A DNA stretch of 64,000 nucleotides. It comes from Geosiphon pyriformis uo1. Its lineage: Eukaryota; Fungi; Glomeromycota. The translations under genes were made by a program, and so were the position numbers. This document shows, piece after piece, positions 5,735 through 50,676 of the stretch. The stretch is taken from contig JAAOMT010000760.1 in assembly GCA_016748015.1 (NCBI GenBank), positions 540,039 through 604,038 on the forward strand, read 5' to 3'. Each line of letters opens with the position of its first letter. The first letter of the stretch is position 1. Below the pieces are notes generated by a model. The model saw only the letters and a program-made list of their open reading frames with translations, was not told the origin of the DNA and searched no databases.

Positions 5735-6430
5735 ACAAAAAGAGGACAAAGACAACTTCTCGACATATGAACTCGTCTGCCTTTGATTTCCTCCAATACA
5801 TCTCCCTCCATTCTGCAAGATTCGTGGTTCTCTTCGACGATGCAACTTCTGACGGGCACAAACTCTTCCAGGATATTCTTGCTGTCAAAACAGTCTTCAT
5901 CTGCCGCATGCAGGAAAGGAGAGCTTCTCGCTACTGAAGAGAACGCAGAAACAAAAAATTGCAAGGGAAGACAACAGCTGCCTGTGGCAAACGCCAGAAG
6001 ATGGAAGGCATCATCAACCGCACGTCACTGGTCAAGATGCATCCCAACCACCCTCTGAAGCAGCTATTGAAGAGATGGATGGGCTCGGTGAGATTTGCCT
6101 TTAATATGTAGTGGGATCGAGCAAAAGGCGTAGCATCATTATGAAACAAGATGGTAGCACGGAAAAGGATGGTTAAAACTTATGGCGTTTTAACAAAAAC
6201 ATCTTCTTTTGGGCTATCTGGGGTGAAAAAAAGTTCGCAGGGCCATGGTCCGTTTTGGCATGCTCTTAAGAGGTTGCTTAGGGTCAGCTCTTCCACATCA
6301 CAGACGAAACGATTGATCAAGCATTGGTTGCGCAAAAGGAAGATATTAAATGTAATGCATAGCGACAACAAAGTGTATCAACAGATGATCTTTCTTTTCA
6401 ACCTCATACCATAAAAATTTGTACTCGAAT
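5735..6430 (+). mobile_element. IS607-like element relic A: TnpA C-terminus plus Fanzor2/TnpB N-terminal part, 3'-truncated
   Basis: The frame from 5767 reads AFDFLQYISLHSARFVVLFDDATSDGHKLFQDILAVKTVFICRMQERRASRY*, resembling the IS607 TnpA end (EL.EDILAI.TVF.CR..GRR). It continues as RTSLVKMHPNHPLKQLLKRWMGSVRFAFN (TnpB/Fanzor N-terminal motif), and later ITDETIDQALVAQKEDI...FQPHTIKICTR. Confidence 0.8.
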
Positions 6431-6779: not shown

Positions 6780-9700
6780 ATTTACTTATATATCTTTTAA
6801 AAAAATTAATAAAAATAAAAAGCTAATATATTTAACCAAATATAATTAAATTAATAAAACTAAAAATTTAAAAATTTAATTATAACAATATCTTATTTTT
6901 GTATTTAATTTAACAAATTCTACAATTTTTAGAATTATTATTTTATTATATTCAAAATTCTGTAAGCTTCTTAGTATTAACTTTTTAACACAAATTTTTT
7001 AATTAAAATTATATAAAACCAAGTCTTTAATATTAATAAATTGATTTTTTTAAATATAAATAAATTAATTAAATATTTCAAAATATTTAACTTATAAGTA
7101 CGCAAATATAAAACATTAGATTAAAAACTTTTGTATTTAATAACTATATTTATTTTGATTCTAATATTCAATAATAAATATAATTAATTATTAAATTTTA
7201 TAAAATTTATATAATAAAAAACATTAAATTGTAATAAGTTTAATTTGTATTGTTTTAATTAAAGTATAATTTAATTATTTAAATTATGTTAAATTATTTT
7301 AAGTTAAAAATTCTAAATAATTTATCTGCTTTTATTTTTTTAATATAATTATTTAATATTTTTTTATTTTAAACATAGTTTATTATTAAAATAATTAATT
7401 TTAAATTTATCTTTATAATTAAAAAAATATATTTTGTATTAAATTTATTAGCAAATACCAAATTAATTATGTTTTTTCAAGAAAATTTTTTTGGTTTTTT
7501 TTATTAAATGTAATTATAATAAAATAAAATACAATAAACAAAAAAATAATTTAAGCATAAAAAATAAGAATAGTAAAATAATTAATAAAACTAAATATTT
7601 TTAATAATATATAACAAAAACATTAAAATATATTATTATCATATTTGTAAACAAAACTATTTTATAATACTAATAACAAACAAATTAATTTAAATATTAT
7701 TTAACAAAAATATTAAGTTTAAATATTATAAACAAAACCAATTTAACAAAAAAAGTTTTATTTAAACCAAAAAAATTATACAAATTTAACACCAAATAGT
7801 TTAAACTTTAATATTTATATTAATTTTAACAATAATAGCATTAAAACTTTTTAAAACTTAAAAATAATAATAATATATTTGTTAATAAATAATTCAAATA
7901 AATTATAAGAAATTAAATTAGATAATATTTATTGATTTTTATTTATGGATTTAGTAAAATAATAATTATTTTTTAAAAATTAAAGCTTGATAAATAATTA
8001 ATTAATTAAAAAATAATAAAAAACTCTTTTTTTTTAAATTTTATAATTATATATTAAGAATAAATTTTTTTTTCTTTATTACTTTTTTACTGTTTAAATA
8101 GCCAAAAAAAATTAAAAAAACAAAAAACAATCCTTTTTTTTCTAAAATAACCAATTTTTTTATTATATTTTAAATTTTTTTTGGTATATCTTAAAATATT
8201 ACTAATTGTTTCTCTTTTTATAAAAAATCAAACATTGATTTTATTTAATTTTTTGGTATTTATAAATATAATTTGGTTTAAATATCTTATAAACATTAAA
8301 AAATTGTGTTATTAAACCAATAATTTTTAATTATACATAATAACAAAACTGGTTATATTGTTTATTAGTATTCTATTAAGTTAATTAATAAATAAAAACA
8401 ACTTTATTAAAAATAATAAAAAATTATATATTTGTATATTTTAACTTTTATTTTAAGCTTTTAAAATTTTATTAATAGATTAAATTAAAAATTTGTAAAC
8501 TTAAATCTTATTAAAATTCTTATTTATATATTTTATAAGTTTTATTATAATAGATTTTAAGTTTTTTAAGTATTTAGCTTTAGTTTTAATTTTAAAAAAA
8601 ATTCTTATTTTATATTTAATTTTGTTTTAAGTTTTGGTTATTCTGTTAAGCTTTAAATTTTTATATTAAGTCTTAATATTATTACAGTCAGATTAACAAG
8701 TTAATAAATAGAAAAAAAAGCAATATTGTATAATAATAAAATAATTAAAAGAGTAATTTAACTTTAATAAATAAATTGAATTAGTAAGAATTTAATATAT
8801 GAAATCAGTTTCATAAATATTTTTATTGTTATTTTTTTTACAAAATAACAAAAAAATTTAAAGATAGAAAGATAGTTTATACTGTCAACAAAAATAATAT
8901 ACTAGTATAATTTTATATCTTATATTAACACTTTTAAAATTTAATATCAAGTATTAATTATATTTTTTAATAAATATTTATTCAATATACTTTACAAAAA
9001 CTAATAATTATACAAATTAAAAAAAAAGGAAAAAAATAGCAAAAAAAAATAAAATAATAAAATAAAAAAGTTAATATTATTATATTGATTTAAGTATAAA
9101 TTAAATATAAATAATTTTCTATGACTTTAAAAAGTTTTACTTAAAAAAAAATTAATAATTAGATTGGTAATCATATCAATAATTCAGTCATTAATCAAAT
9201 CAATAATTAAATTAATAACTAAATTAATAATTATATTAATAATTATTTCTAAAAATAGAATAGTTAATTAATAATCTTAGTGATTAACACATATAACTAA
9301 TTATGGCTAAGTAAATAAAAGTTAAAAAGTAAAAAATTTAACTATAACAATATTATTATAAAAATATTAAACAAAAAACTTAAAAATTAATTAATAAAAA
9401 GTTTATATTATATTGTTATTTTTAGATTGTTTTGACTATAATTATATAATTAATAATTGATTAAAAAGTTTACACAATAATTTGATTAATATTTTTGAGA
9501 TAATAATAATATTATTAAAAAATTTGAGTTTTTAATTAACATAAAATTATTTTTATAATTCTTATAAATATTATTTTTTACATTTTCTTATTTATTTAAT
9601 CAAATTATTAATTAATATTATTTATTTAATAATTTTATTTATTTAATAGTTCTATTTAGTTTTTAAAAATTTATAAAATTATTAACTAATATTATAATTA

Positions 9701-11350
9701 AATATATAAAAACAGTTTTTTTTTAAAAAAATTATTAATCTTAATTTAAAATTAATTAATTCTTACAAATTAATAAAATAAATTTATATTTTGAAAACAT
9801 AATTAATTGTTTTAAAATTTACTACTTTTGACTAATATTCTAAAATTAATTAGTTATCAATTTAAATAAATTAATATATACTATTTTGATATTTAATTTG
9901 TTTAATTAATTACATATAGCTTAAGTATTTATATAAATCAATTTATAAGAAGATATAAATACAAAAAAAACAAATAAAAAATAGTTTTAAATATAAATTC
10001 AACAATCTTAAATTCTTAAAATATATTATTTATTTAAAAAGTAATTTTATAAATTAAAATAAAACTCAAACAATTCTAAAATAAACAATACTTTTTTGCA
10101 TAAAAATTATTAAAAAATTTTTAGATTTGCTAATTTTTATTGTTAATTTATTAAAAATTATTTAAAGTTACTATTTTATTAACAGTTTTATAATACAAAA
10201 AATAAAATATTTAAGTAAATTTAACAAGCAAGTATTGTATTTCAAGTTCTTTATTACAGTTTTTGTTTTAGTTTATGTTTGTTTTAAGAATAGTACTATT
10301 ATAGTTTGAATTTAATAAATATTTATATTTTGTTGTTTTTTATTTATATAAGTTTTCTGTTTAAAAAAGATGTATAATAAAAAATGTTAATAATTATTAC
10401 TACTTTTAAACAACAATAATAATATTTTATAAATATATAATACTAAATTACAATTTTATATAATTATAAATTTTAAATATTTTATAATAACCAGAATATT
10501 AAATTAATGTTAGACTTAATAGCTAATTTTTATAACCAATTTTAATTTTATAATCTCTTATTATCTTTGTTTATTATAAATGTTTTTTTATGTTATTTAG
10601 AATTTGAATTTAAAAAATAAAATAAAATTTATATATTAATAATAAAGCATATTATTAAAATTAAACAATTTAAATTTGTAATTACTTTGATTGTTTGTTT
10701 AAATTTAAAACTTTTTAAAATAATTAAAAAATTAACAATTACAAATATATATGTCCAAAATATAATAAATTTATTATTATTATTAGTTTTCTATTAAAAT
10801 TGAAATATAAGAATAAAATCTTATTTTCTAATAATTTGATTTATGTTTCAAAAATTTAAAATAGCATAAAATCTTAAAAAAAATCATAATAATTGACTTA
10901 CTAACTATTTTGAAATCAATAAAATAGTTAAATTAGTTGTAAAAAAATTAATTTGTTGCAAATTTAATAAGAATGCTTTATTTTAATTTTTGTATAAAAA
11001 CTATAACTTTCAAAATATTGTTAAACTTTGTTTTTTTTTTAAATAAAATAATTTTAGATTAAAGACCACAATTTATTTTTTGGTTATAAAAAAACTTTTT
11101 AAATTACCAAGTATTTAGATTTTTTTGTTTTTAATTTTTTATCTTTAAATTAATAATCAAACTAAATAGATTAATCAAATCTTAAAGCAATATTTGTAAT
11201 AATTTGTTAATTATTAACAAGATAATTGGTTTAAAATATTGTTATTAGCAAAGTTCGTATGCAATAATACCATTTAAGTTTTAATTAAAGCAACACTGTT
11301 TTTTGTTAATTACAAATAAAATTTACACTTCAGTTTTTTAGTAATTAGAA
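6780..11350. repeat. Extremely AT-rich, CpG-depleted block, probably a hypermutated transposon relic
   Basis: About 4.6 kb, roughly 85-90% A+T by eye, almost no CG dinucleotides and no ORF of 60 aa or more. The element class cannot be recognised. Confidence 0.55.
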
Positions 11351-14138: not shown

Positions 14139-14309
14139 TTTTTGTTGAAATTTGTTTCCAAAAAATATTAAATTTTTTAAAGTTTAGGTTTCTATCAAGC
14201 TCATTTTTCAATTGAGTTGGTGCTGATGAGATAATAATCACCATGCAAAATCAGGTGAACAATGTGACACGATATCTTTTTCGGAAACCGTTGCGGAAAT
14301 TGTGGCTAA

Positions 14310-15670
14310 TGATGGTCTCTAACAGCTCCATCTTTCTTGCCAAATTATCACTGATGTTGCGGGGTGAATTAATTTCAAAAGATCCAGTTTTAAATCCTAT
14401 TGAATTCTCACATTGAGGAATGGGTACAGAAGCATGTCTAATTTTTAAATTTTATATATCACATTAATATATTTCCTTTTTAATTTAGCAGGTTGTGGTT
14501 GCCTAACTCTGTTTGCATGTACACATTCTTTATCTCAATAGCATAAAAATCATCATAATTTTACTTAGAAAATAATACATCAATTTTTATTACTGCAGTT
14601 CAAGAATTGCCCAAAAATATTTTTTCAATTAATAGTGTTTTTATTCAAAGATAATACTTAGTAAGAAATTGACAAAGATGAAATAATTGAAAACAACAAG
14701 AACAAGAAAAAAAAGCCAGAAAAATTTTAATATTTGTAAGAAAAAAAGAGTAAAAAATTTACCAAGAAGTATTAAAAGCCAAATGCAATACAAAAAATAA
14801 TTATGAAACAATAATTGGGCTGTATTAAATAAATAATATTTTTTTAAATCTTTTGATATTATTATCATTATTATTACAGATTGGAATAAATGATAGCAAT
14901 TCAATTATAAAAAAGTACTGTGCAAAAAAACTATATAGCCAAAATTTAAAAAATTATCTATTTTTTCAGAATAAATACCAAAAAACAAAATAATTGGCTT
15001 AATAAAAGAGTGTTAAAACGTGTAATTATAAATTTATTTAAAATTTCTAACTTTTATAGTTGTTATTTATAAAAAACAAATTACTAATTTTTTTGTTCAA
15101 ATTTTTATATTTTTTTTATTAAGTAAAGTTCAATTTTATTATTAATATATATAAAATCTAAATTTGATTCAAAATTTGTTATTTATTTTTACTTTATAAA
15201 TATTTTTATTATTATATCTGTAATAAGATTGGTGTTAAAAATGCATTTTTTGATAATTTTATTCTCTGAACAGTTAAAAAATTTGCTAAAAACAAAGTTT
15301 TATGTAATGTGTTCAAACATAAATCCAAGATCATATTATTAAAAATCTTGTTGATAAATTTTACAGAAAAACTACATTTGGCTTGTCTGAAATTCTGATT
15401 TTATTATAATTTCTAAATTTAATAAAGATTAAATGAAAAATAACAAAACAGTGCAGAATATAATAATATAAACACATGTAAGTTTTAAACAAAAATTGAA
15501 GTTCAAACCTAAAGAGTTTAACAATCATGTTTTTTGGGTTATATACAGTTAATATGGAAAAAAAAGGTTTTTAAATGTAAACAATGCAATTATATATATA
15601 TATAAATATTAATAATACATGTGAAATATTTTTTCAAATATTATTTAATAGCTATTTACAATTTGAAAAT
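14310..15670 (+). mobile_element. IS607-like element relic B: intron-containing TnpA plus Fanzor2, degraded with internal deletions
   Basis: TnpA motifs: QIITDVAG*INFKRSSFK (14341), intron about 14432-14491, VVVA*LC, QELPKNIFSINSVF (14601). Fanzor motifs: RSIK..KQ*LGC, intron about 14829-14879, IKNLVDKFYRKTT/WLV*NSDFIIISKFN, NKTVQNIII*THVSFKQKLK, VFKCKQCN, NINNTCEIFFQILFNSYLQFE. Confidence 0.85.
14320..14650 (+). pseudogene. tnpA: IS607 serine recombinase TnpA relic (copy B)
   Basis: Matches the D(I/V)xSGxNFKRxG motif, the VVVAHRDRLC motif (partly deleted) and the C-terminal ELAEDILSINTVF motif after allowing mostly C>T/G>A changes. Confidence 0.8.
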
Positions 15671-15999
15671 ATATTATATTTATTTATTTCCAAAAATGAA
15701 TTAACTGCTTAAAATAAAAGCTAATAAATTTTTTATGTTTCATCAGAACCAAATACAAAGTATGGGTTATTGTTGGTTTCTTTGATAAAAATACTCAAAA
15801 GGATATAATATATTGAATAATATTGGCAAATCATATTGGAAAAGCAAATTCATATTTGCTACTGGTAACTAGGAGACAGCTTCAAAAGCCAGAGTTAAAA
15901 AAATACCTGATGTTATACTATATAAGAAGTTTAATCTTTAAATTTTCAAAGCTTGGAAGAATAAAAAATTAAATCTTAACTCTGCATTATGTTATTAGA

Positions 16000-16200
16000 T
16001 AATGCTGAAGAGAGACAGGATTGACGGGCATTATGAACATTCCTCTCTACAAAAATGCTTTGGTTCTGGTTGGACACGGAAAATTATACATATCAACAAC
16101 GGGCCTGTGAGTTTGCCAGGCTTTGCTGGATGATTGGACATATGATGATTTAGGTGGCTATTAATGGTCAATGTTGTCTATCTGAGTTCGACTCAAGCGA
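16000..16200 (+). mobile_element. Fanzor2 3'-end fragment C with putative omega-RNA scaffold
   Basis: Degraded AEE...KCFGSGW...NNG..(R)ALLD. Positions 16119-16132 are identical to 42823-42836, and 16155-16186 match 42874-42905 at 28/32. Confidence 0.7.
16119..16197 (+). ncRNA. Putative Fanzor omega-RNA scaffold (degraded copy)
   Basis: Homologous to the 42.8-kb copy. GGATG..TATCT long-range stem remnant, TGGCTA-TTAA-TGGTCA hairpin and terminal TGAGT-TCG-ACTCA hairpin. Confidence 0.5.
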
Positions 16201-17179
16201 TCCGTTCCTAGCAAATCCCTTTATTTTCTCTAGTATGTTAGTTTATCCAATTCCTTTGAGGAAGCAAATTCTAAATTGGATATTGATTTTATGATTTCTC
16301 TTCCATTGAAATTTCGATTCATTAAATATCAGTACACAAGATAAGGTTCCGACTAATAACTCAGATAATTAATTATCTCTCAGCATTCAATTAAAATTTC
16401 TATTCCAGAATTAAATACAATTTAAAGTATCAGGGGGAAGGGACAATTGATTTTGACTAATCCACAATTTTGTAAAAAGTGCAAGAGAAACATTTGAAAA
16501 TATCGATTCAAATTTTTACTGCAATAAAAACTTTGGTAAAAAGTTCGGAGATAATTGATCAAATAATTGTTTCTCGCTTCAAAATTTGAATTCCAAACCA
16601 AATCATCATATTTCGTTCAAATTTGAAATTTTCAGGCTATCATTATTTCACAGCCGAACCTCAGAACTTTGTAAAATAAAAAATTATTAATTTAGAAAAA
16701 TGGGAATTTGTCAAGATCATCACATTTCTTTATTAAAAAATGTAAAACTCCATGCCAAACGTGTCCAAGATGAATTAGATAAAAATTGGGTTGATAAATT
16801 CTTTTAAATATATGATCAAAGCGCTTTATTAGGAGCGTCTTTGGGCTTACCCTTCCATAAAAAATTCACTCTTACGTTTTTAGGACGAACTGAATAGAAA
16901 AGGAAGTGAAATTCATTAAATTTTTTGGGCTCCTGACGGTTCAATGAGATGTTGAAAATGTAATATTAAATTTTTCTAACTATATAAACGAGAATGAACT
17001 ATTAAAGCAAAAAAATTCGGATAAACTAAGTCAGTTAAAGGGGAATTAGGTAAGCTTGTAAAAGCTGGGAAATTATAATAATGTGCTCGATTTCTTCCTG
17101 TGGAAAACAATCTATTAAAATATTTAATTATTATAAATCGTTAAGAGGGAAAGAAGTTGCTAAACAACAGGGTGAAGTT

Positions 17180-25323: not shown

Positions 25324-25397
25324 GCCTCCATGGCGCAATTGGTTAGCGCGTTCGGCTGTTAACCGAAAGGATCCTGGTTCAAATCCAGGTGGGGGCG
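25324..25397 (+). tRNA. tRNA-Asn (GTT), intronless
   Basis: Full cloverleaf: GCCTCCA/TGGGGGC acceptor stem, GCGC D-stem, TTCGG-CTGTTAA-CCGAA anticodon arm and CCTGG-TTCAAAT-CCAGG T-arm. A T-run terminator lies about 16 nt downstream. Confidence 0.97.
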
Positions 25398-36891: not shown

Positions 36892-39800
36892 TTGATTTCA
36901 AGAAAAAAATCTGATATTTACAAACAGATTCTAAAAGTTTATTCCCAATAACAGACTTTTCAATATAAATTTATTTCAATATTATTTAGGTTGGTTCAAT
37001 TTGATATTATATATTAGCTACTTGTAATTAGTCATATTAATCATTTTAAAAAGTCTTATTCATTTGTTCATTTGATTCTTAATTCATTTTAATTTTTATA
37101 TTTTTTATCTTATTAACCCAATATAGATATGTGAATTTTTATCGTTTTTAATTTCATATTTAGAGCTTTTTTTATTAAGATATATAATAAATAAATTTTT
37201 TTAATACTTTTATTATTAAAATATATGAATATTTAATTTGAATATGAGAATTCTTTAAATTACATACTATTTTATTATTATTTGCCAATTTTGGAGTTTT
37301 AACAAATAAATATGGTTTTGTTTTTTCAAAATGGATATTTATATTATTTATTATTGAGATGAATTTATTTCAAAAGTCAAAAATTATTTAATATAAGAAA
37401 TAATGAAGGGTTTAAAATGTTTCTCATAATATGTTAATATAAATTTAATTATCAATATTTTTTTATTTTGAGAACCTAATTAACATAAATATATCTATGA
37501 ATTTTAAGTTTCTTTGAAATATATTTGCATTAAATTTTATTTTTTTAATATCAAAGAAATAAATAACGAAAAAAAATTTGCTTATAATTAAAATTAAAAA
37601 TGTTAAATATGTAATACTATTTATAATGAAGAAAGAGCAAATGAAAAAATTAGAGAGGGTACTCGGAAAACGTGCGTTCAATTTTCTATCAGTGGATTGA
37701 GTCTATACTTAAAAAAGACACATTTTATGTATATGCCTTTTTGCTGTAGTTTATTATACCCAAGCTATAAATTTTTTTAATTAAAAAAGGCATCATGGTC
37801 TCTCTCTGCGAAAAAAGATTGCTATCACAGCTTAATTAGGAAGCCTGTTTCCCCAATTAAAACATCTTGATAGAAATGTACACAATTTATCAAGTGATAA
37901 TTGACCGTGAAAATTCACAAAGAACTTTCCTCCAACGATGGTTAATATGCTTTTTAAAGTTCCTTGGTGGCAATAGAAAATCAAATTTTTAAAGTCGATT
38001 GAAAGTTTTTTTTGGAATAAAAATTTCTAGAAAGTTTGCGTCATCAATTTTAAGAACATTCTTACATTTATTTGCACTAAGAGTAAATAAACTATTCCCA
38101 AAAGGTATGGCGTGAATAAATTAATTTATTTAGTCAATTGAATCTTTTGTTTTAGGTAATTTGCGTAAGAGGATAACAGGTTTAAAAATATAAGGAAAAT
38201 AACTTTTAATGGACAATGAAATAGGTCATCTGTAGTACAAATTCGGTGAGTCAATGAAAAATGGATTTGGAAAAATTGGTTAAATCCCGAAATACCACTA
38301 TTAAATCTCTGGCTGTGATTTGCGAAAATTATTAACTTGACGATTATATTTTGAATTTAAATGAATTTATTATTATTAATAATATTATTATATTATTATT
38401 TTCTTATGCATTTCATTCAAAAATAATTTTAAATTCCTTTCGACTATTAATGAACCTAAATTNNNNNNNNNNNNNNNNNNNNTTGATTTCAAGAAAAAAA
38501 TCTGATATTTACAAACAGATTCTAAAAGTTTATTCCCAATAACAGACTTTTCAATATAAATTTATTTCAATATTATTTAGGTTGGTTCAATTTGATATTA
38601 TATATTAGCTACTTGTAATTAGTCATATTAATCATTTTAAAAAGTCTTATTCATTTGTTCATTTGATTCTTAATTCATTTTAATTTTTATATTTTTTATC
38701 TTATTAACCCAATATAGATATGTGAATTTTTATCGTTTTTAATTTCATATTTAGAGCTTTTTTTATTAAGATATATAATAAATAAATTTTTTTAATACTT
38801 TTATTATTAAAATATATGAATATTTAATTTGAATATGAGAATTCTTTAAATTACATACTATTTTATTATTATTTGCCAATTTTGGAGTTTTAACAAATAA
38901 ATATGGTTTTGTTTTTTCAAAATGGATATTTATATTATTTATTATTGAGATGAATTTATTTCAAAAGTCAAAAATTATTTAATATAAGAAATAATGAAGG
39001 GTTTAAAATGTTTCTCATAATATGTTAATATAAATTTAATTATCAATATTTTTTTATTTTGAGAACCTAATTAACATAAATATATCTATGAATTTTAAGT
39101 TTCTTTGAAATATATTTGCATTAAATTTTATTTTTTTAATATCAAAGAAATAAATAACGAAAAAAAATTTGCTTATAATTAAAATTAAAAATGTTAAATA
39201 TGTAATACTATTTATAATGAAGAAAGAGCAAATGAAAAAATTAGAGAGGGTACTCGGAAAACGTGCGTTCAATTTTCTATCAGTGGATTGAGTCTATACT
39301 TAAAAAAGACACATTTTATGTATATGCCTTTTTGCTGTAGTTTATTATACCCAAGCTATAAATTTTTTTAATTAAAAAAGGCATCATGGTCTCTCTCTGC
39401 GAAAAAAGATTGCTATCACAGCTTAATTAGGAAGCCTGTTTCCCCAATTAAAACATCTTGATAGAAATGTACACAATTTATCAAGTGATAATTGACCGTG
39501 AAAATTCACAAAGAACTTTCCTCCAACGATGGTTAATATGCTTTTTAAAGTTCCTTGGTGGCAATAGAAAATCAAATTTTTAAAGTCGATTGAAAGTTTT
39601 TTTTGGAATAAAAATTTCTAGAAAGTTTGCGTCATCAATTTTAAGAACATTCTTACATTTATTTGCACTAAGAGTAAATAAACTATTCCCAAAAGGTATG
39701 GCGTGAATAAATTAATTTATTTAGTCAATTGAATCTTTTGTTTTAGGTAATTTGCGTAAGAGGATAACAGGTTTAAAAATATAAGGAAAATAACTTTTAA

Positions 39801-40053
39801 TGGACAATGAAATAGGTCATCTGTAGTACAAATTCGGTGAGTCAATGAAAAATGGATTTGGAAAAATTGGTTAAATCCCGAAATACCACTATTAAATCTC
39901 TGGCTGTGATTTGCGAAAATTATTAACTTGACGATTATATTTTGAATTTAAATGAATTTATTATTATTAATAATATTATTATATTATTATTTTCTTATGC
40001 ATTTCATTCAAAAATAATTTTAAATTCCTTTCGACTATTAATGAACCTAAATT
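36892..40053 (+). repeat. Apparently exact 1571-bp direct duplication (36892-38462 and 38483-40053) flanking a 20-N gap
   Basis: Offset of 1591 bp. Identical ORFs at 37463 and 39054. The copies abut the N run at 38463-38482. Confidence 0.95.
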
Positions 40054-40609
40054 TTTAATTTTTTAATGTTTTTTAGGAATACCATGCATTAAATTCTGAG
40101 TTGTGGTTTCGCATAAGTGATAAAATTTTTTTGCAAAATTAACACATGGCGAAACCTGTTTCATTTTGTCAAATAAAGCATTGGATCATTTTATTTTTGG
40201 GAGCCTGAATTGCCTGCAATACTGGAACGTGCTAAATAAATAAACAAACAAACTGGAGGTATCAAGTTTTAGTCGAATTCGAACTTTGTTTAAAAATGCT
40301 CGACCATTAGTTTCGCTCAACTTTTCGTAACAGCAAAACAAAATTTATGCGTTAAATAATATTGAATTTTTAGATAATTTGACACAATGAAGAATTTTTT
40401 ACAATTAAAATTTAAATGATCGTAAGTATTGAAACTGCTTTCTATTATGGTTGGGAATATTGGGTATTTTTTAAGAATAGATCAGAGCCCAGCAAATAAA
40501 TTGAAATTTACTATACTTTTAATGATGTCTTAGTATTTTTTTTAATTATTAATATCATTACAATTTGATCACCATTTCTGAACTCTTATGTATTTTATGA
40601 TTTTATTAC

Positions 40610-40975
40610 ATATTTTATGTCCTGTCTTTTCTTTTTAATAGAAGCAACATCAACAATTATACCTTTCTTACTTTATTTTTGCTGATGTTGCAGACAAGAC
40701 CCTACTAGAACAATCATGTCACAGCTTGGTTCAAGAGATGTGTTTTTCTTTTTTTACTTTTTATTGTTTGAAGATCAAAACTTATACTTATTATTTTGGT
40801 ATTTAGACTGTGATTGCTCACTAATACTAATTCTTTCACCATTGTCTCAACAACACAAAAATCATCATAATAGACACATAAAATTACTCATTGTTCAATT
40901 TCACAGCCAACAATTTGGTTAAAAATATTATTACAATCAATACAGACTTTAATTATTAACAGCAAAAAAGAACAA
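40610..40975 (+). pseudogene. tnpA: IS607 serine recombinase TnpA relic (copy D)
   Basis: tatgtcctgtcttttct (YARVSS relic), KQ..QQLYLSYFIFADVA..KTLLEQSCHSLVQE, intron 40738-40806, TVIAH*Y* (HRDR), NNLVKNIITINTDFNY*QQKR (DLVEDIIAINTVFNCRQQGR). Confidence 0.75.
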
Positions 40976-41040
40976 AAAGTTCAATATTAAAGTGAGTTTT
41001 TTTTTTAATTCTGAAAAAGTAAAAGATAGAAAGAATAATA

Positions 41041-42641
41041 AGAAGTTTGAAGATACATGTGAATTTAAATGTGAACAAAAAACAATAATAAAGCAATAGT
41101 TGAATTGTGCCAGATAAGAAAAGATAAAAGTTTTAAATATGTTATATATATTGAAAATATTAACTTATGTTATTTTTGTTATTATAGAATTGTATATAAC
41201 ATAGTAGTAAAAAATTATGTTTTGAACAAGAAAAATAAAGGATTATAAACATCTTGATCTTAAATATTTTCAGAATTTACAAAAAAAATACATTACAATA
41301 ATGCAATCTTATATAAAAATAAAATCATAAAAGATACTATTCAAGTCTAAAAAGCTTGAACAAACTGTTTAATATTGTTTTTGGTTTTACTTATGAAAAC
41401 AATTATGGCAAACAATTACAATTTAAAAAGAAAACTGCAAAAATAATTTGCTATTTTTTAAACATAAACTTTATTTGCGGAAGCAATTGTTTAATAATCA
41501 ATTTAATCTTAAACTAAAAACTAAAGAAATGGCAAAATAAATAGCAAAATAACCATTAGTTTAGTTAATAACCACAAAAATTCAAAGAGTAACTTAATTC
41601 TTAATGTTAAAACTCTAAACAAAAAAAAATCACAGACAAAAAAAATGAAAAAAATAACAAATTAATCAAAAGTCTGGTTATTAACAACTATTACAATTAT
41701 TATAGTTTTAAAAACAAAAGCAAAAAAATTCAAAACCATTATTTTAAGAACAAAAAAATTATTCGCAATAAAAAAATGTTAATACACATTCTCCACTTTA
41801 TCTTAAATATCAAAAAATAATAATAACTAGTTTAATAAAAAAGAAGACACATTGTGACAACAAACTAGTATATAACTGGTTGCTTCAGTAGTGGATATTT
41901 ATACAAGTTTATAAAAAAAAAGGCTATCTCCCAATAATAATAATAAGAATCAAATGAAAATTTGCTTTCTAGATCTAAGTGTTTGTATCTTTCAAATCTG
42001 TAAGTTAATAACAGAAGTAAGATGTCAAAAACAAAATGTTAAAAATAAAACATTATGGTTAATTTATAATCTGTTTTTCTATTAATTAACAGGTATTTTC
42101 TAACACATAACTGTGGTGAAATTAGTGGCAATGATGTTCAAAAGCTTGTTCACATCTGACTTGCACCCAATTATCTAATCTCTTTTATAACCCAGGCTTC
42201 TGTGAAAAAGCATAACTTGATGCAATGTACATAGGCACGAATGTGCCAATGAATTTACAACCCTGTAAATGAAGTCCATAAGAAGACTACTCTATGGCTT
42301 GTGCAAACATTTGACATTATCATCATCCCACTCTTTAATGCAAGCGAGATAAGAAGAAAGACCCAAAAACGGAAAATTAATTTCAAGACAGTTCAAAAGA
42401 TAATGACATGAACACACTCAAGATTCAGGAAGAGGCTTTTATCAAAGGCCAAGAAATATGGAAAACAAGTGTGCACAGTCTCAAAAATGTACAAGCAAGA
42501 CATGCAGTCAATGTGGGTGCATCAATAACAAACTTGGAGGGAAGAAGTCTTTTCATTGCCATAAGTGCAACTTGAAATATTAACAGTGCATGCAGTATTT
42601 TTCTTCGAGCTCTATTGAATGGCTGCATAAAATTTGAATAG
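41041..42641 (+). pseudogene. Fanzor2 (eukaryotic TnpB) RNA-guided nuclease pseudogene with at least 2 introns
   Basis: RSLKIH..KQ*LNCAR|intron 41114-41187|IVYN; CDNKLVY; KICFLDLSVCIFQI (ICSLDPGVRTFQT, Asp at 41972)|intron about 42000-42092|YFLTHNCGEI; NEVHKKTTLWLVQTFDIIIIPLF; T*THSRFRKRLLSKA; VSKMY.SKTCSQCG..LGGKKSFHCHKC; INSACSIFLRALLNG; stop at 42639-42641. Confidence 0.93.
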
Positions 42642-42799
42642 TGGCTGAGTGAGACTCTGAATTCTGTTGTCTGTGAATGGTAGCATTTTTTTTTAAAAAA
42701 AAAGGAGACGAGATTTATTATAAAAAAAATATACAGCTGGAGCTGATAATAATGATAACAATGATGACGATAGCGAGAACTTAAAACATACAGCTGGAT

Positions 42800-42915
42800 G
42801 AGTGCCTGAAGGATTTCCTTCGGGCTTTGCTGGATGGATCTGTCCTTTGGGGCAGTTGAATGATAGGTTATGTTGGCTAGTAATAGTCAATGTTGTCCAT
42901 CCGAGGTATTCAGTT
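42800..42915 (+). ncRNA. Fanzor2 3'-end fragment E, putative omega-RNA scaffold
   Basis: Starts with SA*RI(F)LRALLDG (GARGIFLRALLDG). GGATGGA 42832-38 pairs with TCCATCC 42896-902 and encloses the hairpins CTGTCC/GGGCAG and ATGTTGGCTA-GTAA-TAGTCAATGT. Confidence 0.7.
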
Positions 42916-43368
42916 AGGCCTAAAACAAGTAGTTTAGCATCTTTAATTATTTTTTGGCAAACATTACTTGAAATTTGCAAACAGAGGAAATAATTCGCCT
43001 CGCGGTGCTTTTTTTATTACAATTAAGAAAATTATCTTTACTAATATTCCTTGTAATTCCATTATATCTTGGTTCTCAGAACAGAGTAAGTCTACCAGCG
43101 ATATGATTACTAATTCTTGACATGAGCGCAATCGCTAGTCAAGATGTCGTTTCATAAAATGTTACCCAAAAATGGCTTAGTTTACCTTTCTTGATGAATA
43201 ATAATGATCTATTCGATGAGATCCATCGATCACTCCCATTTTTCAACATGATCCGGAATTTCTCAAATTTTTATGAAAATTAACCCTATCCAAAATTTTT
43301 GAAGCATTCTGCCATATCATTCAAAGGTTACGTTTAAGATTTATCTCTCTGCACCTTTTTCAACTATA

Positions 43369-44889
43369 ATGACATTACGGCAAAAAAGGCTCTTTCAATC
43401 ATCCTCGCCGAGACATACTGAGCGATCCTCCTCAAAAAGACTCTTCGATAAGGTCAAGATTTGCTTCATCCCCTTACTAGTATATTCATTGTACTTTGCC
43501 CTTTTTTTTAAGTTTTGGAATGATATTACCGAAGCTTTTCCCAAGTCAAAAATCTATCTTTGGTCACGAGATAAGCTGTCTCATAGAAGGCAGAAGGGTC
43601 TGCCATCTTTGGGGATAAATGATTCATACATTCAGAATTCTCCGTGTATGCCTAGTGTAGGAAAGATAGGACCCAAACAAAATAACTGTTATTTGAAAAC
43701 GCTCAAACTTCAAACTATATTCATGAAGAAGCGATCCGATAATATCTTGCTTACAATGGATCAAATTGAGGGACTAGAATTACCCGACTTGCCGATACAT
43801 CGTGTTTACAATAATTGGACGTTAAAACTTCTAGAGAGAATGGCAAGATTCGCTAATTTAGCGTATTGCTCGACAAACAACAATGTTGGTTATATGATTT
43901 CCGGTGCTATAGGTAAAATCAATCGATATACAGCCTTGAAAATATGCATCAACCTCGCAATCGTCTCATTCTTTTTCTGAAGCCCATATTTTCAAGGATT
44001 TCGAGTCAAACGAAATTGTTGCATATTTTGGAGGACCTCATCTTTCACTAAAAGAGTGGCAGGAGAGAAAAAATGAAAGGACTGATTATTTAGCGAAATA
44101 TAAGTGGCCTTTAAAAGTTTCTTTAGAGGCAGCTTGGTTGGCTGATATTGAGCAAATAATGCCGGCTCTTTTTGATAAATTAAGAGATCTTTTGAATCAA
44201 TTAAAGGTTCAACCAGAAGATATGCCACATTTAAGATTTACAGGACACGGGATTGGGGGTGGTAAGCTGTTCGTTTGATGGTGATTAGATGTATAGTGGT
44301 ATTTAAAATTAATTGCTAATTAGTTCAATTTGGCAGTATACGCAGTGCTTGCAAGCCTCCTGTTACGATTTGAAATTCCCCAGTTAATACCTTCCAAGTC
44401 AGGTTGGCCATTCGTCTATTTGAGAACTGTCACATTTGGGCAACCACGTATAGGCGATACCAATTTTGCTCTGTTAGTGAATTCACTTTTAGGAGAAAGT
44501 GTTTATCGTGTCACTCACACCAAAGATTTTGTTTCGCATTATCCCCGAATTGAACAAGGATATAAACACCATGAAAGCGAATATTGGATTTCTTATTCAA
44601 CGTGCGATTGTGCACCCGCAAAATCCAATACACAGTTTGTTAATGATGATACGGATAATTTTATGCCTCCTCTTTACCATTGCTTTGGTTATAATAATAA
44701 AGACAATCCAAGACATGTTTTGACCGGTGAAAACCAGGTAAATTTCTAAAGTTTTCATGTAATTTGATTGCACAAAATTCATATAATTCCTACTTATCGA
44801 TTTCGCAGAAATGCAATGCTGGTCAAAATGATTTTTATGAATCAGCTCACTTTGGACCTTATTTTGGTACTCAAATGGGCCAATGTTAA
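43369..44889 (+). CDS. Lipase class 3-fold protein with N-terminal TM anchor and no nucleophile Ser (GHGIGG), 4 exons (43369-43912, 43983-44261, 44337-44737, 44809-44889)
   Basis: The spliced frame is intact: MARFANLAYC, FTGHGIGG|VYA, VTFGQPRIG, RVTHTKDFV, HHESEYWI, AHFGPYFGTQMGQC*. Confidence 0.9.
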
Positions 44890-49422: not shown

Positions 49423-50676
49423 TTATTTTAGATTATGAGCTTTCCAAGCAGCCCACCAAGTATCAATTCCATCGACGAATCCAAGATGACGCTGGTTCCA
49501 TCCCAACAAGGTTTGTGCTTTTTTGTTACTTGTTATCGTTTGAGTTGCAAGCCCTTCTTCCATAGGATTATTAGGGTTAGGTGAAGTAAAGGATATCACA
49601 TTTTGGGGGTTTTCTGATCGAGTAATTTAGTGTTCATTACATTTTTTTGAATCACTGTTAGGATGGAAAAGCGAACGATTAAGTAATTTTATTTACCTTT
49701 ATATCCAGTAACCCTGGCCACAGCCTCAAGACAATCACTAACTGATTCAGATTGGTTATTGGTAATATTAAATATATGACCTTTAACCAAATCTGCATTT
49801 TTAACAACTCGAAGATAGGCGTCAGCTTCAAAAAACCACATTAATATTAACACTATGATTTTTGGATAATCGAGAAAAACATATCCATTTATTTTATTAC
49901 CTATATCATCAACGTGGACAAGACTCCACCTGAGATTCGGAACACCAGGATGTGAAAGTATTCCAGCCAATGCACCACCAAACCAAAGTCCAGTTAAGGA
50001 ACCAGATTTCCCATAAATCTCTCCCGGACGAATCACAATTCCATTGAAATCGGAAGATGAAATGACCTTTTGTTCAATGGGAACTCTCCATGATATAAAA
50101 GGTGGTACATTGTTTAGTGGAGTATTTTCCGTCACAATTTCTGAACCATTGTCTCCATGAATCTGTATTTTAGGGAAGCGAAGATGAAAATAAGCTTTTA
50201 TGAAAAAAGAGTTTTTGTGATAAAAGAATTAATTTCAAATATGAAATATTGAATTATTACCCAAAGACCGGAAGTATAAATATAAGTCAACTTTTTTTGA
50301 TTATTGACTGCACGTCTTTTTGAAATGGTTTCAATTGTAGCGATAATATGTTCGGCATGTACAGTTCCGTTTTCATAGTTCACTGTAGTGTCAATTACTA
50401 CGTCAACCTTTTCAGCGATTGTGGACCATTTATTAACGTCTTTTACATCTCCAAGCACGGGAATGACTGTAAAAACAGGGTTGACGATAAATTTATTGAA
50501 AAAATAGACCAAAATATTAATATATCTAATTCGGTTTTACTCTCGTCTTTTGTCAATATCTTGGCTTTTTCCTCGCTTCGCGATAATCCATAAACTTGAT
50601 ATCCAGCTCGAGCCAATTCTACTGCAATTTCCTTTCCAAGATATCCCGTAGAACCTAGAATTAATACTTTTACCAT
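49423..50676 (-). CDS. NAD-dependent epimerase/dehydratase (extended SDR), multi-exon
   Basis: MVKVLILGSTGYLG Rossmann motif, YIYTSGLW, IRPGEIYG, WSLVHVDD and LLGWNQRHLGFVDGIDTWWAAWKA. Confidence 0.9.

What the first reader, a model, noticed from the sequence alone, without database searches (positions are those of the whole stretch)
42800..42935. Foldable conserved 3' end: candidate omega-RNA scaffold with guide boundary
Seen: the last codons (LLDG, GGATGGA 42832-38) pair with TCCATCC (42896-902). This stem encloses a CTGTCC/GGGCAG hairpin and a 10-bp stem with G-U pairs capped by a GTAA (GNRA) tetraloop. It is followed by a degraded CCGAG-GTA-TTCAG hairpin. The 16.1-kb locus shares a 14/14 block and a 28/32 block, and has its own terminal hairpin TGAGT-TCG-ACTCA; similarity then stops. 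Established: TnpB/Fanzor omega-RNAs overlap the ORF 3' end and the transposon right end, with the guide taken from flanking DNA. Inference: the right end lies near 42915 and 16197, and the following 15-20 nt would be guide.
Basis: partly seen in the sequence, partly recalled or inferred. Interest (0 to 1): 0.78.

Follow-up and report, generated by a model that had tools for sequence, protein, structure and literature searches.

The report
Guide-RNA scaffold of dead fungal Fanzor2
This folded stretch lies about 160 bases behind a broken Fanzor2 nuclease gene in a likely fungal genome and is likely the remains of the RNA scaffold that aimed the enzyme at DNA; unlike in its bacterial relatives it sits outside the protein gene, likely as a duplicated gene end behind a predicted intron.

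Summary
The hairpins and the blocks shared with 16.1 kb are real (z -3.4). Two readings need correcting. LLDG is not the gene's end: the broken Fanzor2 stops at 42639-41 after LLNG, and the folded block is a non-coding look-alike of those codons behind a predicted intron (42649-42793). The right end is probably ...ATCCG at 42903 (about 70%) and 16204, not 42915/16197. Bacterial IS607 relatives end sharply at ATC(G/C)G. There the codons ARGIFLRALxD form a 10-bp hairpin and a 3-bp stem whose loop pairs with the terminal bases, with covariation. The coding copies have lost the wobble pairing (1 of 6 versus 87 of 90). One intact relative (L052) and three read-through proteins share the layout. This copy is dead: catalytic sites are broken, it likely lacks 20 nt, and it decays like the gene. 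No RNA data; no two-sided covariation among three fungal copies. Fanzor2 proteins of these fungi are already catalogued; I found no paper on this scaffold layout. The scan earlier noted a viral Fanzor2 with pseudoknot elsewhere. New variant of a known kind.

The parts
40652..41000 (+). Probable remnant of the IS607 serine-recombinase gene (tnpA), heavily decayed
   Evidence: DNA alignment to 14321-14859, where IITDVAG*INFKR and VVVA motifs are read (weak tblastn, E 0.15-1.4); no meaningful direct tblastn hit here, so inferred
41013..42641 (+). Fanzor2 pseudogene with stops and frameshifts; predicted intron 42000-42092; stop TAG 42639-41. RuvC-II E and RuvC-III D regions are broken
   Evidence: tblastn with P0016 (E 1e-43) and with the L052 protein (E 7e-39); Pfam PF07282 pieces below cut-off; tree
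42588..42623 (+). Coding copy of the gene-end codons (ACSIFLRALLNG); 0 of 3 wobble-position pairs of hairpin A kept
42649..42793 (+). Predicted spliceosomal intron behind the stop (GTGAGA ... CATACAG); a second candidate acceptor lies 57 nt upstream
   Evidence: sequence, repeat D13; same place as the 79-nt GT..AG segment of L052; no RNA evidence
42804..42825 (+). Hairpin A of the scaffold: non-coding, frameshifted look-alike of codons ARGIFLRA
   Evidence: best window hit of a bacteria-only covariance model, 42797-42845, 15.5 bits, E 0.029, 12 of 13 pairs kept; folds
42829..42840 (+). Nexus-like 3-bp stem with 6-nt loop GGATGG (ancestral codons L-D-G-A); middle pair broken (C.U) in this copy, intact in L052
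   Evidence: (bacterial stem)
42840..42855 (+). Short hairpin CTGTCC/GGGCAG, also in L052, deleted in the 16-kb copy
42866..42897 (+). G-U-rich stem (10 bp core, up to 13 of 14) with GNRA loop: GTAA here, GCAA in L052, TTAA at 16 kb
42896..42903 (+). Terminal TCCATCCG: 3' strand of the predicted pseudoknot and probable right end (CG at 42902-03); about 20 nt of linker present in relatives is likely deleted just before it
42904..42923 (+). Flank that would serve as guide if the end is 42903; no other close match in the window
   Evidence: inference
14323..15665 (+). Second IS607/Fanzor2 relic (tnpA remnant plus very AT-decayed Fanzor2)
16103..16204 (+). Scaffold and right end of the second relic, full-length linker, ending GCGATCCG; nexus and short hairpin damaged by a 21-nt deletion
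   Evidence: (blastn to L052 1815-1938, E 5e-8)

Best explanation
The block is the conserved 3' end of a broken IS607-type Fanzor2 element and is likely the relic of its omega-RNA scaffold, which in this lineage likely arose as a duplicate of the gene's last codons and lies behind the stop and a predicted intron. In an intact element (L052) the transcript would run from the Fanzor2 gene through the last exon into the flank and be trimmed to an RNA of about 125-140 nt plus guide. Hairpin A, a 3-bp nexus, a short hairpin and a long GNRA stem would fold; the nexus loop GGAUGG would pair with the terminal CCAUCC as a pseudoknot; the 15-20 flank bases after ...AUCCG would be the guide. Fanzor2 would cut the empty site left when the serine recombinase excises the element at a CG dinucleotide, and repair from the sister chromatid would restore it. 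The TAM would end in CG but differ from the element's own TCCG. Shown: sequence, family, broken gene, sharp ends and covariation in bacterial relatives, loss of pairing in the coding copies. Inferred: expression, splicing, pseudoknot in fungi, duplication, TAM, homing. This copy is likely inert.
For: Family: top PDB hit of L052 exon 3 is 9B0L, ApmFz2 (E 1e-19; identity of 9B0L); relic groups with L052, P0135, P0016 at 98/87. Ends: in 9 of 9 multi-copy bacterial or phage groups (35 loci) identity stops after ATC(G/C)G or AACCG. L052, P0016, P0136, P0135 agree up to TCCATCCG (peptide SIR or IHP) and differ after it. Three contigs of the run that holds the window leave the window at 42896 and read on through a linker to ...ACTCAATCCATCCG. 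Structure in bacteria: 97.3% of 299 cells paired, 6 of 13 pairs with two-sided change, slid controls at most 68%; wobble pairs 87 of 90 versus shuffle mean 52, maximum 64; loop-to-terminus pairs at the two variable offsets 58 of 70 Watson-Crick versus 43, 0 of 10,000 shuffles, and 4-5 of 35 just beyond the helix. The window copy pairs GATGG with CCATC where most bacteria pair GATAC with GTATC. Duplication: the bacterial model ranks the non-coding block first in the window, above the coding copy (15.5 versus 11.5 bits); coding copies keep 1 of 3 (L052) and 0 of 3 (window) wobble pairs; part of the sister clade (P0137, P0140, P0144, P0146) still encodes RALLDGA, the peptide the block spells. Pseudoknot and scaffold-plus-flank guide are established for IS607 TnpB and Fanzor2.
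Against: No two-sided covariation among the three fungal copies with DNA (0 of 28 pairs; 8 one-sided changes). L052 and the 16-kb block fold no better than shuffles and the bacterial model misses both at E up to 10, while an unrelated site at 50092 scores like the coding copy. DNA similarity between gene end and block is modest: 3 of 10 comparisons reach p under 0.05 (23 of 2000, 4 and 26 of 1000 shuffles), all three with the window block as target; L052's block against its own gene end is not significant (1210 of 2000). Global alignment scores favour a longer, decayed end near 42918-21 over the deletion reading (127 versus 107 against L052; 116 versus 80 against 16 kb). The invariant GAT/ATC part of the bacterial count is circular, because the end was picked by a motif, and shuffles ignore kinship. 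P0016, P0135 and P0136 are known as peptides only. The left end was not found.
Confidence: 0.75

Rival explanations
1. Same scaffold, different end: the window copy has no internal deletion; 42897-42913 is the decayed linker (like CTGAG-TTCG-ACTCA at 16 kb) and the true end is decayed or lost near 42911-42921, close to the first reader's 42915. The perfect TCCATCC partner would then be a chance gain.
For: Higher global alignment scores; 7 of 9 matches to the 16-kb linker with one 2-nt gap; relatives often have T or TA after CCG, this copy has AG.
Against: Needs about half of the last 27 nt changed while the block is 84% identical to L052 (89 of 106); the terminal octamer is an exact match under the deletion reading, between two TCCA repeats in L052; by the shape of hairpin A the 16-kb copy is closer to L052 than to this copy, so its linker is the wrong yardstick; close paralogues in the same run carry a different linker and the full end (their identity with the three loose-end contigs is inferred).
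Confidence: 0.3
2. The block is only the DNA right end of the transposon: palindromes that bind the serine recombinase, with no RNA function in fungi.
For: GTTAGC/GTTGGC/GTTGTC units resemble the repeated TGTTA(A/G)C units of bacterial right ends; no covariation among fungal copies; weak folding of L052.
Against: Stems rest on many G-U pairs; GNRA loop; the nexus and loop-to-terminus pairing are kept with changed letters relative to bacteria; hairpin A was kept in the non-coding copy and lost in the coding copy; L052 encodes an intact 444-aa nuclease that would need a guide. Both roles can coexist, as in ISXfa1.
Confidence: 0.1
3. The block is the true gene end of a second, separate element or a stand-alone 'ghost' omega-RNA that landed behind the relic, not a fixed duplicated module.
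For: It spells FLRALLDG in one frame; ghost loci are described for SpuFz1 and other Fanzors; spacer length varies from 64 to about 440 nt.
Against: The same order (gene end, GT..AG segment, block) is in L052, P0016, P0135, P0136 and both window relics, and the first of these form one supported clade with the relic.
Confidence: 0.08
4. The scaffold outlived its gene and still supplies guides in trans to an active Fanzor2 elsewhere in the genome.
For: Block GC 45-47% against 17-36% in the relic genes; raw G/C to A/T change 7 of 55 against 101 of 306 (p 0.002).
Against: With codon position and CpG controlled the difference vanishes (6 of 49 versus 3 of 35, p 0.73; 16-kb copy 10 of 48 versus 9 of 21, p 0.08); GC is higher at both ends of each relic; both blocks carry damaging deletions or mismatches.
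Confidence: 0.07

Closest known systems
ApmFz2 / ApmFNuc (mimivirus IS607 Fanzor2; PDB 9B0L; PMC11832414, PMC10530073)
   Same: Closest solved protein; IS607 context with serine recombinase; scaffold at the right end with the last bases in a pseudoknot; conserved non-coding region behind the ORF (passages).
   Different: Its scaffold is about 205 nt and its TAM is GGG; here about 125-140 nt, end CG, genes with introns; no origin by duplication is mentioned in the passages read.
IS607 TnpB / pro-Fanzor of cyanobacteria, Chloroflexota and others (ISXfa1 type; 10.1101/2023.08.09.552727; loci L111-L189)
   Same: 39-52% protein identity; right end ATC(G/C)G; hairpin A, nexus and loop-to-terminus helix.
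   Different: In the bacterial loci these modules are the last codons of the gene; here they are a separate non-coding copy and the coding copy has lost the pairing.
NlovFz2 (Naegleria; PMC10432273)
   Same: Eukaryotic Fanzor2 whose scaffold ends in CG (GGCG) with TAM CCG.
   Different: No transposase linked in that paper; scaffold sequence looks unrelated by eye, not tested.
Fanzor2 proteins of Glomeromycota in the supplementary table of PMC10432273 (Diversispora, Geosiphon, Rhizophagus)
   Same: FZ2-labelled rows, one of which (CAG8448100.1) shows the same motifs by eye and ends RALLDG.
   Different: Listed as proteins; no omega-RNA, ends or activity seen for them in what I read.
RAGATH-18 IS607 TnpB reRNA (PMC11061315)
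   Same: An IS607 guide RNA that is independent of the coding sequence: precedent for non-overlap.
   Different: Different RNA family; Rfam finds no match here or in four bacterial relatives.

Membership tests
Fanzor2 | Eukaryotic host | tested here: met
   Introns and eukaryotic genes in the window (bZIP, HLH, C2H2); nearest named proteins from Geosiphon, Diversispora, Funneliformis. The fungal host is inferred.
Fanzor2 | D-X(125,275)-[TS][TS]-XX-C4 zinc finger-X(5,50)-RD motif, with RuvC-II E just before the zinc finger | tested here: met
   Intact in L052 (DPG, EAYTSKTC, DRD); present but broken in the window relic. Motif as given.
Fanzor2 | Clusters with IS607-type TnpB rather than Fanzor1 | tested here: met
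   Sits among IS607-type bacterial proteins; best PDB hit ApmFz2. No Fanzor1 row was in the tree.
IS607-type element | Serine-recombinase TnpA upstream | tested here: inconclusive
   Clear at 5779-5958 (E 1e-4 with bacterial TnpA); weak at 14323-97; only by DNA likeness at 40652-41000.
IS607-type element | Shared dinucleotide at both ends, no TIR or TSD | tested here: inconclusive
   Right end CG by homology; bacterial relatives with CG ends have CG at the left end; fungal left ends not located.
TnpB/Fanzor2 omega-RNA | Conserved scaffold ending at the transposon right end, variable flank as guide | tested here: met
   Sharp in bacteria; four fungal records agree up to CCG and differ after; the end of this very copy is about 70% sure.
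TnpB/Fanzor2 omega-RNA | Nexus stem-loop pairing with the last scaffold bases (pseudoknot) | tested here: met
   Covariation in bacterial relatives; complementary in all three fungal copies; nexus stem damaged in both window copies.
TnpB/Fanzor2 omega-RNA | Compensatory change among copies of this family | tested here: inconclusive
   0 of 28 pairs in only three copies, two of them decayed.
TnpB/Fanzor2 omega-RNA | Overlap with the 3' end of the ORF (common, not universal) | tested here: not met
   Block starts about 160 nt behind the stop in the window and about 100 nt behind it in L052.
TnpB/Fanzor2 omega-RNA | Discrete expressed RNA bound by the nuclease | not testable with these tools
   No RNA run was listed.
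TnpB/Fanzor2 omega-RNA | Guide- and TAM-dependent DNA cleavage | not testable with these tools
   Needs a bench assay.

The most novel reading that the evidence does not exclude
A fungal Fanzor2 lineage escaped the overlap between nuclease gene and guide RNA by duplicating the gene's last dozen codons: one copy kept the reading frame and dropped the RNA pairing, the other kept the hairpins and pseudoknot and dropped the frame, and a spliceosomal intron turned the scaffold into its own last exon, so that splicing may set or regulate the omega-RNA's 5' end. An intact, intron-bearing member with two KKRKV signals (L052) is ready to test.
Probability: 0.45. Interest if true: 0.65.

Novelty: new variant of a known kind. 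Interest (0 to 1): 0.45.

Why it matters
It gives the scaffold, pseudoknot, right end and a TAM prediction (ending in CG) for a fungal Fanzor2 clade so far listed only as proteins, and points to an intact 444-aa candidate editor. It also offers a readable case of how an RNA guide embedded in a bacterial coding sequence became a separate module in a eukaryote, by duplication and division of labour, which bears on how guide RNAs were freed from their genes on the way to Fanzor and CRISPR systems. The copy in this window is itself a fossil.

Tried and rejected
No whole genome is held, so copies could not be collected. DNA patterns in viral contigs gave chance hits only (2 loci; 20 loci). The metagenome pattern gave 55 loci, 54 of them chance. 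Searches with the decayed relic peptide failed, as did P0135 alone in viral contigs; a search with the read-through tail found only P0016. Rfam: only a tRNA in the window, nothing relevant on L052 or four bacterial loci. Sequencing runs: no RNA holder listed; laying the three runs on L052's end placed two short pieces only. Continued selection on the block was suggested by GC content and rejected after control. A TIR/TSD element (Fanzor2* type) was considered; no inverted end was seen in 41500-43500 and TnpA remnants argue for IS607, but the left end was not found. The automatic left-end walk worked for 1 of 5 groups and was redone pairwise. No second target for the predicted guides in the window at under 3 mismatches in 15. 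Dropped rows: 12 of 97 loci with the gene-end motif had no end motif, 15 of 112 lacked the gene-end motif, and about 6 of the 85 ends look mis-called by the pattern; they were left in the pair count. The model used 24 loci picked by hand for the RALxD form.

Full report
Observation. The region folds better than 200 of 200 shuffles (z -3.41; z -5.18 when cut to 42794-42903). The 14-nt block occurs twice in 64 kb against 0.08 expected. The 16-kb copy and the intact relative do not beat shuffles, so the strong score is partly a property of this copy.

The gene. Six-frame translation shows a broken TnpB-like C-terminus at 42094-42641. Searches led to proteins of Geosiphon, Diversispora, Funneliformis, Cetraspora and a chytrid. 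tblastn places three relics in the window: 41013-42641, 14738-15665 and an N-terminal piece at 5.9-6.4 kb. Serine-recombinase remnants lie upstream: clear at 5779-5958, weak at 14323-97, and by DNA likeness only at 40652-41000. One of 55 metagenome pattern hits, L052, is a true relative. With two predicted introns it encodes 444 aa with two KKRKV motifs and all three RuvC motifs; its last exon hits ApmFz2 best among solved structures. In a 46-row tree the relic groups with L052, P0135 and P0016 at 98/87; the proteins I labelled fungal need 3 changes, so they are not one clade in this sample.

LLDG is not the gene end. The relic ends IFLRALLNGCIKFE-stop at 42641. The LLDG of the finding lies about 190 nt further on. 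L052 has the same order: stop at 1711-13, a 79-nt GTAAGC..GCTAAT..TTAG segment, then the block. P0016, P0135 and P0136 are gene calls that read through this segment and the block; L052 translated in that frame matches P0016 almost letter for letter apart from stops. The segment looks like the other introns of the locus and varies in length (64, 73, 79, 145 nt; the first two counted from peptides), but no RNA shows that it is spliced.

Where the element ends. Of 112 bacterial and viral loci, 97 have the gene-end motif and 85 an end motif nearby. In 9 of 9 multi-copy groups identity stops at the last base of ATC(G/C)G or AACCG. The fungal records agree up to TCCATCCG and differ after it. The 16-kb copy therefore ends at 16204. 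For the 42.8-kb copy two readings exist. Either 20 nt were deleted between two TCCA repeats and the end is 42903, or the linker is present, decayed, and the end is lost near 42911-21. Alignment scores favour the second. The exact terminal octamer, the 84% identity elsewhere, frequent deletions in other copies and three contigs that leave the window at 42896 and reach the full end favour the first. I put it at 70:30. Depth falls to the window's own contig after 42921, so shared sequence does not run far beyond. Several records have T or TA after CCG, so the scaffold may take one or two more bases.

Structure. In the bacterial loci the codons ARGIFLRA form a 10-bp hairpin and the codons after L a 3-bp stem with a 6-nt loop. 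Pairing is 97.3% with 6 of 13 pairs changed on both sides; third-position pairs are 87 of 90 against 52 by shuffle. The loop bases GAT-NN pair with the terminal NN-ATC: AC/GT, AA/TT, AG/CT, TC/GA; 58 of 70 at the two variable offsets against 43, and 4-5 of 35 beyond. The GAT/ATC part is circular and kin were not thinned. A first stem-loop, the nexus, pairing with the scaffold's 3' end is described as general for TnpB omega-RNAs and was proved by compensatory mutation in ISXfa1; ApmFz2 has it too. The window block has the same modules: hairpin A at 42804-25, GCT-GGATGG-ATC at 42829-40, and GATGG facing CCATC. Among the three fungal copies no pair changes on both sides.

Duplication. A model built from 24 bacterial and phage gene ends ranks 42797-42845 first in the window (15.5 bits, E 0.029, rough), with 12 of 13 pairs kept; the coding copy scores 11.5 with all three wobble pairs broken; L052's coding copy scores 20.6 with four pairs broken. 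The model misses the blocks of L052 and 16 kb, whose hairpin A is shortened. Pairwise DNA tests are positive in 3 of 10 cases. P0137 and three cluster mates in the sister clade still encode RALLDGA, which is what the block spells, while the clade with the downstream copy has drifted to RGMLDGV or RALLNGC. The simplest history is an ancestor with overlap, a duplication of the gene end, then loss of pairing in one copy and of frame in the other. It is an inference; DNA of the sister clade is missing.

Mechanism. From IS607 biology: the recombinase excises and inserts at a dinucleotide, the nuclease cuts the empty site using scaffold plus flank, and repair restores the element; the TAM differs from the element's own end to avoid self-cutting. 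Relatives that end in CG have ACCG or GCG at the left junction, and NlovFz2 has a scaffold ending GGCG and TAM CCG. I predict a TAM ending in CG other than TCCG. Processing of the RNA from the mRNA by the nuclease is reported for TnpB (PMC10278001, seen as listing only) and assumed here. The window copy is likely inert: broken active site, damaged scaffold, and decay at the gene's rate once codon position and CpG are controlled.

What is known. Read: 10.1101/2023.08.09.552727 passages and sections 22-24; PMC10432273 passages, discussion and supplement hits, file 2 unreadable; PMC10530073 passages and a supplement search with no hit for six genus names; passages of PMC11832414, PMC11061315, PMC10691335, PMC13565253, 10.1101/2023.11.20.567912 and PMC3627910. 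Fanzor2 proteins of these fungi are in the first paper's table. Non-overlapping IS607 guides exist. Eight searches showed no paper on an omega-RNA of this clade or on release from overlap by duplication; subscription papers, Repbase entries and bioRxiv supplements were out of reach and may cover it.

Verdict. A real feature, correctly recognised in kind, with the coding overlap and the boundaries corrected. Known system, dead copy, but an unreported-looking layout and an intact testable relative: new variant of a known kind, interest 0.45.

Noticed in passing
L052:226-1937: Apparently intact 444-aa Fanzor2 with two KKRKV motifs, a GC-AG and a GT-AG intron, and a full scaffold; candidate for testing.
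   Followed up: yes
window 5779-6400: Third IS607 relic of another subfamily: tnpA 3' part running into a Fanzor2 N-terminus, 59% identical to the start of P0039 (Cetraspora), which is annotated as a TnpA-Fanzor fusion; cut off before a very AT-rich tract.
   Followed up: partly
window 36892-38462 and 38483-40053: Exact 1,571-bp tandem duplication, 100% identical, 20 nt apart; very recent event or assembly artefact.
   Followed up: no
window 7000-11000: Four kb at 9-12% GC, probably fully decayed repeats; similar troughs at 31-32 kb and 52-54 kb.
   Followed up: no
window 14200-16200 and 40600-42900: Both relics are most AT-rich in the middle (8-20% GC) and less so at both ends, as expected if a methylation-linked or RIP-like process spares repeat edges.
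   Followed up: partly
L111-L189, gene ends: A compact omega-RNA family inside the last codons of cyanobacterial and Chloroflexota IS607 TnpB genes, with clear third-position covariation and no Rfam model on the four loci tested.
   Followed up: partly
L052:1806-1811 with 1923-1928; window 16183-16195: TGAGTC just after the acceptor can pair with GACTYA in the linker (centroid); the 16-kb copy lacks the 5' partner and has a local TGAGT instead. Possibly a fungal-specific closing helix.
   Followed up: partly
window 42726-42741 and 42783-42798: 16-nt repeat 57 nt apart that duplicates the predicted splice acceptor, with a GAT/AAT-rich tract between.
   Followed up: no
tree: Proteins labelled fungal fall in two or three places among bacterial IS607 TnpBs, compatible with more than one transfer; not tested with test_one_clade.
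   Followed up: no
window 25324-25397: tRNA gene (Rfam RF00005).
   Followed up: no
P0023: A Borealophlyctis protein named Exportin-6 carries a Fanzor2-like stretch, probably a gene model that swallowed an insertion.
   Followed up: no
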